Source: the human T2T-CHM13v2.0 reference genome, Homo sapiens
Length of the DNA stretch: 64,000 bases
Assembly: GCF_009914755.1 (NCBI RefSeq)
Contig: NC_060943.1
Reading direction: 5' to 3' (one strand)
Each line of letters opens with the position of its first letter. The first letter of the stretch is position 1. A program made the translations under genes and the position numbers. Below the pieces are notes generated by a model that was not told the DNA's origin, made no database searches, and saw only the letters and a program-made list of their open reading frames with translations. Positions 51,547 to 53,356 of the stretch are shown here, in pieces.

Positions 51547-53356
51547 AAGTCTTCTGGGAGAGAGAGTTGATGAAAATACAGAAGAAAATCATTGTGGAGA
51601 AACTTCTAGCCAGATTCCAGATGACACACTGAACAAAAAAACTTCTCCTGGAGTAAAATCATGTGAAAGCAGTGTGTGTGGAGAAGTCTTCGTGGGTCAT
51701 TCTTCCCTTAATAGGCACATTAGAGCTGACACTGCACACAAGCCGTCTGAGTATCAGGAATATGGACAGGAGCCATATAAGTGTCAACAACGTAAGAAAG
51801 CCTTCAGATGTCACCCCTCCTTTCAAATGCAAGAAAAGGCTCACACTGGAGAAAAACTCTATGATTGTAAAGAATGTGGAAAAACCTTCATATCCCATTC
51901 AAGCATTCAAAGACACATGATAATGCACAATGGAGATGGAACTTATAAATGTAAGTTTTGTGGGAAAGCCTGCCCTTGTCTCAGCATATATCTTATACAT
52001 GAACGAGTTCACACTGGAGAGAAACCATATAAATGTAAACAATGTGGTAAAGCCTTTAGTTATTCAACTTCCCTTCAAATACATGAAAGAACTCACACTG
52101 GAGAGAAGCCTTATGAATGTAAGGAATGTGGGAAAGCATTCGGTAGTCCCAATTCCCTTTATGAACATAGAAGAACTCACACTGGAGAGAAGCCATATGA
52201 ATGCAAACAATGTGGAAAAGCCTTCAGATGGTTCCATTCCTTTCAAATACATGAAAGAACTCACAGTGAGGAGAAGGCTTATGAATGTACCAAATGTGGG
52301 AAAGCATTCAAGTGTCCCAGTTATCTTTGTAGACATGAAGTGACCCACTCTGGGAAAAAGCCCTGTGAATGTAAACAATGTGGGAAAGCATTATCTTATC
52401 TTAACTTTCAAAGACACATGAAAATGCACACTAGAATGAGACCTTATAAATGTAAGACTGTGGAAAAGCCTTTGATTCTCCCAGTTCGTTTTGAAGACAT
52501 GAAAGAACTCACACTGGAGAGAAACCTTATGAATGCAAGCACTGTGGTAAAGCCTTCAATCGTTCCAGTTCCTTTCACTATCATGAAAGGACTCACACTG
52601 GAGAGAAACCCTATGAATGTAAGCAGTGTAGTAAAGCCTTCATTTCTTCCACTTCCTTTCGATATCATGAAAGGACTCACACTGGAGAGAAACCGTATGA
52701 GTGTAAGCAATGTGGGAAAGCCTTCAGATCTGCCTCACACCTTCAAATGCATGGAAGGACTCACACTCAAGAGAAACCCTATGAATGTAAGCAGTGTGGT
52801 AAAGCCTTCATTTTTTCCACTTCCTTTCGATATCATGAAAGGACTCACACTGGAGAGAAACCCTATGAGTGTAAGCAATGTGGGAAAGCCTTCACATCTG
52901 CCTCACACCTTCAAATGCATGAAAGGACTCACACTGGAAAGCAACTGTATGAATCTAAACAATGTGAAAAAACCTTTGGATCTGTCAGAAACCTTCAAAT
53001 TCATGAAAAGACACACCCTGGAGAGAAACCCTATAAGGAATATGGAAAAGCATTCAACAATTTCTCTTCCTTTCAAATACATGCAACAATGCACAGAGGA
53101 CAGAATGCCTATGAATGTAAAGAGTGTGACAAAGCATTCATATCTGCCAAGATCCTTCGAGTACATGCAAGAACACACCCTGGAGAGAAACCCTATGAAT
53201 GTAAGGAATGCGGAAAAGCGTTCAATTATTTTTCTTCTTTGCGTATACACAAAAGGATGCACACTGGAGAGAAACCATATTAATGTAAGGATTGTGGGAA
53301 AGCATTCAGTTTGCCTGGTTCCTTTCGTAGACATAAAAGGGCTCACACTGGAGTGA
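51547..53356 (+). CDS. ZNF844: Exon 4: spacer, about 7 C2H2 fingers (the last atypical), then a 299-aa frameshifted tail; spliced protein 666 aa
   Basis: CACAG|AAGT acceptor; 3+127+61+1810 = 2001 nt, in frame; TGA at 53354-53356. Confidence 0.9.

What the first reader, a model, noticed from the sequence alone, without database searches (positions are those of the whole stretch)
52973..52987. Perfect PLDLS (CtBP-binding) motif in the frameshifted tail; the +1 frame of KAFRS fingers generates PxDL motifs
Seen: CCT TTG GAT CTG TCA = PLDLS in the ZNF844 ORF ([10 protein letters not shown]). PLDLS is the canonical CtBP1/2 corepressor docking motif (established). The finger codons AAA GCC TTY AGA TCT G.. 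read KP[S/L]DL[S/P] in +1, and the window also shows PSDLP, PTDLS (53363 ORF), and PSDLS and PLDLP (ZNF878 +1 ORFs). Inference: a 1-nt deletion could turn a KRAB-ZNF into a dual TRIM28 + CtBP recruiter, a latent corepressor code inside finger arrays. This is my best candidate for an undescribed system here, though a 5-aa motif alone is weak evidence.
Basis: partly seen in the sequence, partly recalled or inferred. Interest (0 to 1): 0.85.

Follow-up and report, generated by a model that had tools for sequence, protein, structure and literature searches.

The report
Accidental CtBP motif in ZNF844 tail
A one-base deletion makes the human repressor gene ZNF844 read part of its zinc-finger array in the wrong frame, and the resulting tail spells the five-letter docking word for the corepressor CtBP, most likely by accident of the finger codons rather than as a hidden code, and whether it binds CtBP is untested.

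Summary
PLDLS is really at 52973-52987: residues 540-544 of annotated ZNF844, inside a 299-aa +1-frame tail that starts at a 1-nt deletion near 52457. Its source finger is KTFGSV, not KAFRS. The homologous finger in two paralogous arrays already reads PSDLS in +1; ZNF844 adds one codon change (TTC AGA to TTT GGA) that follows a CpG-decay route (TTT before G in 16 of 20 fingers versus 67 of 235) and recurs, untranslated, in ZNF433. The "latent code" is local, not general: 54 of 3911 finger-like sites genome-wide give PxD[L/F]; PxDLS was found only in this 19p13.2 subclade; 0 of 5319 simulated deletions in 12 paralogous arrays give PLDLS; 0 of 316 units in 150 database +1-frame proteins give PxDLS. 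The abandoned fingers are nearly intact, so the frameshift is likely young. Against dismissal: the only PLDLS among 273 clade fingers lies in translated sequence (about 2% by chance), and one such motif can bind CtBP at about 5 uM. No ortholog or interaction data were obtainable. Verdict: a real, apparently unreported motif, probably incidental, with a cheap decisive test.

The parts
50266..50392 (+). ZNF844 exon 2, KRAB-A box
   Evidence: Pfam PF01352, 88.1 bits against cut-off 20.4; exon from the hub annotation
51547..52456 (+). Exon 4 spacer and fingers read in the finger frame (6 canonical C2H2 plus degenerate ones)
   Evidence: PF00096 7 stretches
52457..52458 (+). Site of the 1-nt deletion: only two bases between the Lys and second Cys codons of a finger; reading moves to +1
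52457..53356 (+). 299-aa +1-frame tail (aa 368-666), 28-aa quasi-repeat, 36% hydrophobic, no Pfam family above cut-off; ends at TGA 53354-53356, made by a ZNF844-specific A>T at 53354
52492..52494 (+). TGA stop in the abandoned finger frame just after the deletion
52721..52735 (+). PSDLP in the translated tail, from a KAFRSASHL finger
52942..53025 (+). Broken source finger unit (first Cys to Ser at 52954-52956; K-T-F-G-S-V-R-N-L); homologous to the KAFRSVKN finger of paralogues
52973..52987 (+). PLDLS, aa 540-544; differs from the paralogue state PSDLS by C>T at 52977 and A>G at 52978
53281..53283 (+). TAA stop in the abandoned finger frame
53296..53302 (+). G GGA AAG heptamer in the tail frame, 58 nt before the stop; a -1 slip would re-enter a 243-aa finger ORF with 7 canonical fingers
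   Evidence: likely the putative -1 PRF site of bioRxiv 10.1101/2021.04.23.441185 (its table is an image, not seen)
53357..54027 (+). Remaining fingers in the 3' UTR, no stop or frameshift in the finger frame; +1 frame holds PSDLP (53807) and PTDLS (53891), untranslated
20050..20736 (-). ZNF878 array: untranslated +1-frame PSDLS (20736), PSDLP (20400), PLDLP (20064)

Best explanation
The PLDLS is translated in ZNF844's frameshifted tail but is most likely an unselected by-product of finger codons, exposed by a probably young 1-nt deletion, and likely adds little or nothing to repression, which would rest on the KRAB box. Steps: (a) shown: the homologous finger in two paralogous arrays reads PSDLS in +1, so the P, D, L and S letters predate the frameshift; (b) shown: ZNF844 differs by TTC AGA to TTT GGA, giving Ser to Leu in +1; inferred: A>G made a CpG that then decayed; (c) shown: the deletion near 52457 opens a +1 frame that is naturally poor in stops; (d) inferred: this happened in the ape or human lineage, leaving KRAB plus about 7 fingers plus a hydrophobic, probably unstable tail; (e) untested: the isolated peptide may well bind CtBP weakly in vitro without this mattering in cells.
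For: Paralogue alignment: L010 and L012 give PSDLS, L013 SSDLS, L011 PSDLP at the same unit. CpG route: Phe codon is TTT in 16 of 20 fingers where G follows versus 67 of 235 otherwise (odds ratio 10, p=8e-6, units not independent); the same TTT GGA gives PLDLP in the untranslated +1 frame of ZNF433. No enrichment in the tail: PxDL 2 of 10 units versus 25 of 140 in the subclade (p=1.0), PxDLS 1 of 10 versus 4 of 263 (p=0.17). A long tail is ordinary: +1 frame has 1.36 stops per 100 codons versus 11.3 in +2, and 3 of 12 finger-frame arrays have a +1 run of 298 aa or more. Youth: 15 canonical fingers, 2 stops and no second frameshift in the 1530 abandoned bases give about 0.016 neutral substitutions per site (0.006-0.035, rough rate assumptions); Nowick 2011 lists ZNF844 under human-specific finger loss with Ka/Ks 1.59 (PMC3126818). 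Low constraint and poor expression: z_C2H2_miss +1.51 and 'Overexpression failed' in 293T, one of 23 such KZFPs (PMC10547255). ZNF844 was in the input but not among the 228 human PxDLS hits of Klaus 2022 (PMC9890238).
Against: The only PLDLS among 273 finger units of 18 arrays sits in translated sequence, about a 2% event at clade rates. Both changes fall in one +1 codon and supply the first Leu of the LDL core that contacts CtBP; single motifs bind at about 5 uM with no specific flank contacts (RAI2; PMC11187106). The order of motif change and frameshift could not be established, since no primate ZNF844 ortholog was returned. My dN/dS test has no power: its positive control, the translated fingers, also showed no constraint. 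Nowick's table does not say which fingers were lost. One study reports western and IHC detection of ZNF844 and phenotypes on overexpression (PMC13045358), so the protein can accumulate.
Confidence: 0.72

Rival explanations
1. Exaptation in ZNF844 alone: the motif arose by chance, but once translated it docks into the CtBP cleft, so ZNF844 works as a KRAB-TRIM28 plus CtBP dual recruiter on its remaining fingers, or as a CtBP decoy.
For: Perfect core, translated; intact KRAB; motif lies in a pLDDT<50 stretch of the model (tail residues 172-184); flanks are dispensable in RAI2; BCOR has Lys before PLDLS in Klaus EV11, rank 101 (that BCOR binds CtBP is recalled); ZNF844 has reported phenotypes.
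Against: Single site, the second (PSDLP) lacks the LDL core; flanks unlike the 19 literature-supported motifs in the top 30 of EV11 (basic residue in the two positions before the core 0 of 19, acidic 15 of 19, acidic just after the core 0 of 19; hand count, partly circular because that list is ranked by a fly-derived matrix); poor expression in 293T; no ZNF844-CtBP paper in searches.
Confidence: 0.2
2. A general latent corepressor code is maintained in the +1 frame of KRAB-ZNF arrays, so that frameshifts often create CtBP recruiters.
For: 31 of 273 clade units give PxDL and 5 PxDLS. A second finger type (KAFRL) on 19q13 gives 8 latent PLDLV or PLDLI in five fetched arrays, none translated in the reference frame. 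A predicted baboon ZNF433 protein has a +1 tail with PSDLP and PLDLP.
Against: 54 of 3911 sites genome-wide; Px[DN]LS patterns gave 28 matches against 28 control matches, only 4 in recognisable finger arrays, all in 12.04-12.21 Mb (the two finger-looking others are not in arrays; the remaining 22 were not fetched); 0 of 5319 simulated deletions give PLDLS; 0 PxDLS in 316 units of 150 database proteins, many of which may be gene-prediction artefacts; 24 of 31 PxDL end in Pro.
Confidence: 0.03
3. The tail is a transit zone: a fraction of ribosomes slip -1 at G GGA AAG (53296) and append 7 more fingers, giving a KRAB-fingers-tail-fingers protein with PLDLS in an internal linker.
For: In-frame heptamer 58 nt before the stop, 243-aa -1 ORF, downstream 90-nt fold -27.6 kcal/mol versus -16.2 and -8.1 at the two upstream copies; ZNF844 is 1 of 30 computational -1 PRF candidates, with a site near the stop (bioRxiv 10.1101/2021.04.23.441185).
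Against: The heptamer is the Cys-Gly-Lys codon string of many fingers (3 copies in the tail, more in the UTR); in the passages read only CDK5R2 and SEMA6C were validated and the authors expect false positives; ZNF844 finger-frame peptides in Samandi 2017 Table 2 carry a footnote mark, and the footnotes say shared peptides only (PMC5703645).
Confidence: 0.05

Closest known systems
PxDLS/PLDLS CtBP-docking motif (E1A, MECOM/EVI1, PRDM16, ZEB1/2, ZNF219, ZNF536, TGIF1)
   Same: Identical five-residue core in a C2H2 repressor (PMC13066321; PMC9890238).
   Different: Derived from a frameshifted finger; absent from paralogues at the same unit; atypical flanks; no binding data found; not among the 228 hits of Klaus 2022 although ZNF844 was scanned.
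Frame-disrupted zinc-finger mRNAs and frameshift-derived C-termini (Harrison and Yu 2007, PMC2194788; Okamura 2006, seen only as a reference entry)
   Same: Frameshift in the long last exon of a ZNF gene, giving a novel C-terminus; ZNFs are 36 of 67 long disrupted exons. Neighbouring ZNF440 also ends in a +1 tail with two PSDLP.
   Different: The tail is long (299 aa; 5% of simulated deletions reach 298) and happens to carry a perfect corepressor motif.
Alternative-frame ORFs of ZNF genes (Samandi 2017, PMC5703645)
   Same: Same +1 vocabulary ([14 protein letters not shown]); a ZNF440 3' UTR alternative protein listed there contains the paralogous PSDLS.
   Different: In ZNF844 the +1 sequence is fused to KRAB and fingers in the annotated protein rather than separately initiated.
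Canonical KRAB-ZFP repressors acting through TRIM28
   Same: KRAB-A box and C2H2 array present.
   Different: About 18 of 26 finger units are out of frame; ChIP data lacking because overexpression failed.

Membership tests
CtBP-docking PxDLS motif | Core P-L-D-L-S | tested here: met
CtBP-docking PxDLS motif | Lies in a translated protein | tested here: met
   In frame with KRAB in the annotated 666-aa CDS (same protein row in Klaus EV10); peptide-level evidence for the tail not seen
CtBP-docking PxDLS motif | Accessible, disordered context | tested here: inconclusive
   Single-sequence AlphaFold2 model, mean pLDDT 50.5, strand-rich and unreliable; motif region below 50; tail 36% hydrophobic
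CtBP-docking PxDLS motif | Typical flanks, acidic before and basic after (common, not strictly defining) | tested here: not met
   KK before and E after; absent from EV11 hits; flanks dispensable in RAI2
CtBP-docking PxDLS motif | Conserved above flanks in orthologues | not testable with these tools
   No primate ZNF844 ortholog returned; 0 of 4 closest paralogous units have the Leu
CtBP-docking PxDLS motif | Motif-dependent binding to CtBP1/2 and repression | not testable with these tools
   No paper found; interaction databases not searchable here
KRAB-ZFP | KRAB-A box | tested here: met
   PF01352 88.1 bits
KRAB-ZFP | Tandem C2H2 array in frame | tested here: met
   6 canonical fingers by pattern, 7 PF00096 stretches
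KRAB-ZFP | TRIM28 recruitment | not testable with these tools
   Inferred from family knowledge only
Frameshift-derived ZNF tail | Indel switches the array out of the finger frame and the finger frame continues downstream | tested here: met
Proposed latent corepressor code | PxDLS widespread in +1 frames and frequent after frameshifts | tested here: not met
-1 programmed frameshift | In-frame slippery heptamer with downstream stimulator | tested here: inconclusive
   Heptamer present; a crude pseudoknot scan gave equal or better scores at UTR copies

The most novel reading that the evidence does not exclude
ZNF844 is an ape- or human-specific KRAB-ZFP that traded 18 fingers for a frameshift-born tail whose PLDLS docks CtBP: a functional corepressor motif created from a zinc finger's alternative frame by one deletion and one CpG decay, with PLDLV/PLDLI/PSDLS sites in other chr19 arrays one frameshift away from the same conversion.
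Probability: 0.15. Interest if true: 0.65.

Novelty: new member of a known kind. Interest (0 to 1): 0.27.

Why it matters
If the motif works, it would be a datable case of a protein-interaction motif born by frameshift in a young human-lineage transcription factor, and it would mean that frameshift alleles in some KRAB-ZNFs are gain-of-function rather than plain truncations. If it does not, the useful residue is a caution: the +1 frame of finger arrays is open and has a fixed vocabulary, so motif scans of frameshifted ZNF tails will return such hits by construction.

Tried and rejected
Orthologues: three protein searches (tail; N-terminal part; abandoned finger frame) and one representative search returned no primate ZNF844; best tail identity was 66% over 40% (baboon ZNF433). 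This is no evidence of absence. Two-frame dN/dS against paralogue majority bases: tail +1 frame 36:11 and 26:5 nonsynonymous to synonymous (72% expected, p=0.63 and 0.16), finger frame 33:14 and 21:10; but the translated fingers gave 58:22 (p=0.70), so the test failed its positive control and parts of the alignments pair non-orthologous units; treated as inconclusive. Tail length as evidence of selection: rejected. Composition-shuffle null: rejected as inappropriate. AlphaFold2 of the tail: low-confidence strand-rich model, no fold search run on it. No complex prediction was run: no full CtBP sequence was at hand (one search found only single exons and interrupted copies), and a PLDLS-CtBP pass would follow from likeness to solved structures. 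Earlier scan findings were not available. Heyliger 2022 (PMC9016484) is not held. bioRxiv 10.1101/2023.05.28.542624 (passages), PMC8166252 (one supplement row) and PMC6685493 (passages) added little. PQDLS in P0020 lies outside its +1 tail and was not counted.

Full report
Observation. Window 52973-52987 reads CCT TTG GAT CTG TCA, PLDLS, in the frame of the annotated ZNF844 CDS, residues 540-544 of 666. The protein is KRAB-A (PF01352, 88.1 bits), a spacer, about seven fingers and, from a missing base at 52457-52458, a 299-aa tail read in the +1 frame of the array up to TGA 53354-53356. The tail matches no Pfam family above cut-off. The finger frame continues to about 54027 with 15 canonical fingers and two stops.

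Where the motif comes from. In the finger frame the 15 bases belong to a broken finger, K-T-F-G-S-V, not KAFRS. A DNA search of the genome with 52860-53200 gave four closest paralogous segments at 78-82% identity. Aligned, L010 and L012 read PSDLS in +1, L013 SSDLS and L011 PSDLP. L012 and L013 are ZNF440 and ZNF439 by match to sequences in Samandi 2017 Table 2; L011 lies in ZNF700 and L010 inside the ZNF69 span by the hub annotation. So P, D, L and S were inherited from an in-frame KAFRSVKN finger. ZNF844 adds C>T at 52977 and A>G at 52978, turning TCA into TTG. This is an ordinary route: A>G creates a CpG, which decays. Across the fetched arrays the Phe codon is TTT in 16 of 20 fingers where G follows and in 67 of 235 otherwise (related units, so the p of 8e-6 overstates). 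The same TTT GGA gives an untranslated PLDLP in intact ZNF433.

Is there a latent code? Genome-wide, a finger-core pattern matched 3911 sites (reversed control 1059) and the version that yields PxD[L/F] in +1 matched 54 (control 6); counts are lower bounds. 28 of the 54 lie in chr19:11.96-12.32 Mb, 19 on 19q13 and 7 elsewhere. Eight 19q13 sites read PLDLV or PLDLI, from KAFRL-type fingers; I fetched five of those arrays and none is translated in that frame. Patterns for Px[DN]LS gave 28 matches against 28 control matches; 4 are in arrays of this subclade, two finger-looking others proved not to be in arrays, and 22 were not fetched. In 18 fetched arrays, 273 finger units give 31 PxDL, 5 PxDLS and 1 PLDLS; 24 of the 31 end in Pro. 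Placing a 1-nt deletion at every codon of 12 finger-frame arrays (5319 cases) gave PxDL in 23%, PxDLS in 0.9% and PLDLS in none. Among the best 150 of 587 database proteins resembling the tail, 316 recognisable units held 1 PxDL and no PxDLS; many of these may be gene-prediction artefacts. The code is a local vocabulary, not a general system.

Is the ZNF844 case more than chance? The tail is not enriched: PxDL 2 of 10 units against 25 of 140 in the subclade, PxDLS 1 of 10 against 4 of 263 (p=0.17). A 10-unit tail has a PxDLS with probability 0.14-0.25 and a PLDLS with about 0.02. Tail length proves nothing: the +1 frame has 1.36 stops per 100 codons and 3 of 12 arrays have runs of 298 aa or more.

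Age and selection. Six disabling events (2 stops, 4 ligand losses, no second frameshift) in 1530 abandoned bases correspond to about 0.016 neutral substitutions per site (0.006-0.035); the UTR part alone gives 0.006 (0-0.035) (assumed mutation spectrum). For scale, recalled values are about 0.006 to the human-chimpanzee ancestor and 0.03 to the human-macaque ancestor. The gene is dated to 29.4 Ma (PMC10547255 supplement row). Nowick 2011 lists it under human-specific finger loss with Ka/Ks 1.59, without saying which fingers (PMC3126818, section 7 and one supplement table). If the frameshift is that young, two new substitutions in one codon afterwards are unlikely, so the motif probably predates its translation; this is inference, because no ortholog was retrievable. 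A two-frame dN/dS test failed its positive control and is inconclusive.

Could it bind? One motif suffices for about 5 uM binding through the central LDL, without flank contacts, in RAI2 (PMC11187106, passages), so the Ser-to-Leu change is the one that would matter, and in-vitro binding is plausible. Against a role in cells: a single site; flanks unlike those of 19 literature-supported motifs (hand count from part 1 of 13 of Klaus 2022 EV11); ZNF844 is in that study's input (EV10) but not among its 228 PxDLS hits (supplement files 13-24 not searched); reduced constraint at finger ligands and failed overexpression with a C-terminal tag in 293T (PMC10547255, passages and supplement rows). A nasopharyngeal carcinoma study reports westerns, IHC and phenotypes and never mentions CtBP (PMC13045358, passages). 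The AlphaFold2 model is too weak to settle accessibility.

Prior art. The CtBP motif is established (PMC13066321, passages; PMC9890238, passages). Frame-disrupted ZNF mRNAs (PMC2194788, passages) and ZNF alternative-frame ORFs (PMC5703645, passages) are known. I found no paper linking ZNF844 or frameshifted KRAB-ZNF tails to CtBP: 1 unrelated listing; 0; 1, Klaus; 0; 0; 1 unrelated listing. Subscription journals, bioRxiv supplements and interaction databases were out of reach and may hold the answer.

Verdict. Real and apparently unreported, probably incidental (0.72); functional exaptation in ZNF844 alone remains open (0.2); a maintained general code is unlikely (0.03). Interest 0.27.

Noticed in passing
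window 53296-53302 +: In-frame G GGA AAG 58 nt before the stop; a -1 slip would add 243 aa with 7 fingers. ZNF844 is among 30 computational -1 PRF candidates in bioRxiv 10.1101/2021.04.23.441185; its validation was not seen.
   Followed up: partly
window 53354: The tail's stop comes from a ZNF844-specific A>T in a linker (HTGE to HTGV); without it the +1 frame would run 194 aa further and include PSDLP and PTDLS.
   Followed up: partly
L012/L030 (G000:C19:11959060-11963113): ZNF440's main ORF also ends in a +1 tail of about 90 aa with two PSDLP; its 3' array is decayed and holds the paralogous PSDLS.
   Followed up: partly
L010 (G000:C19:12038731-12042077): A decayed finger array inside the ZNF69 span begins right after about 1.3 kb of L1-like sequence; an insertion seems to have split the array (L1 identity recognised from recall).
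   Followed up: no
L015/L019 (ZNF433): Intact array with a 462-aa open +1 frame holding PSDLP twice and PLDLP; a predicted baboon ZNF433 protein (P0002) is frameshifted into this frame.
   Followed up: partly
L041-L045 (G000:C19:37.5-46.7 Mb): KAFRL-type fingers give 8 latent PLDLV or PLDLI in +1; the main ORF in L044 ends in a short +1 tail without the motif.
   Followed up: partly
window 52606-52941 +: Recent 168-nt tandem duplication of a finger pair (82 of 84 and 78 of 84 bases identical).
   Followed up: no
window 52460-53353 +: Single-sequence AlphaFold2 gives the tail a repeating strand pattern (pTM 0.51, pLDDT 50); probably a repeat artefact, but an aggregation-prone tail would fit the failed overexpression.
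   Followed up: no
L011, L013, L024 (ZNF700, ZNF439, ZNF763): Most members of this subclade have lost the 3' part of their array by stops or frameshifts at different places, suggesting repeated truncation is the norm here.
   Followed up: partly
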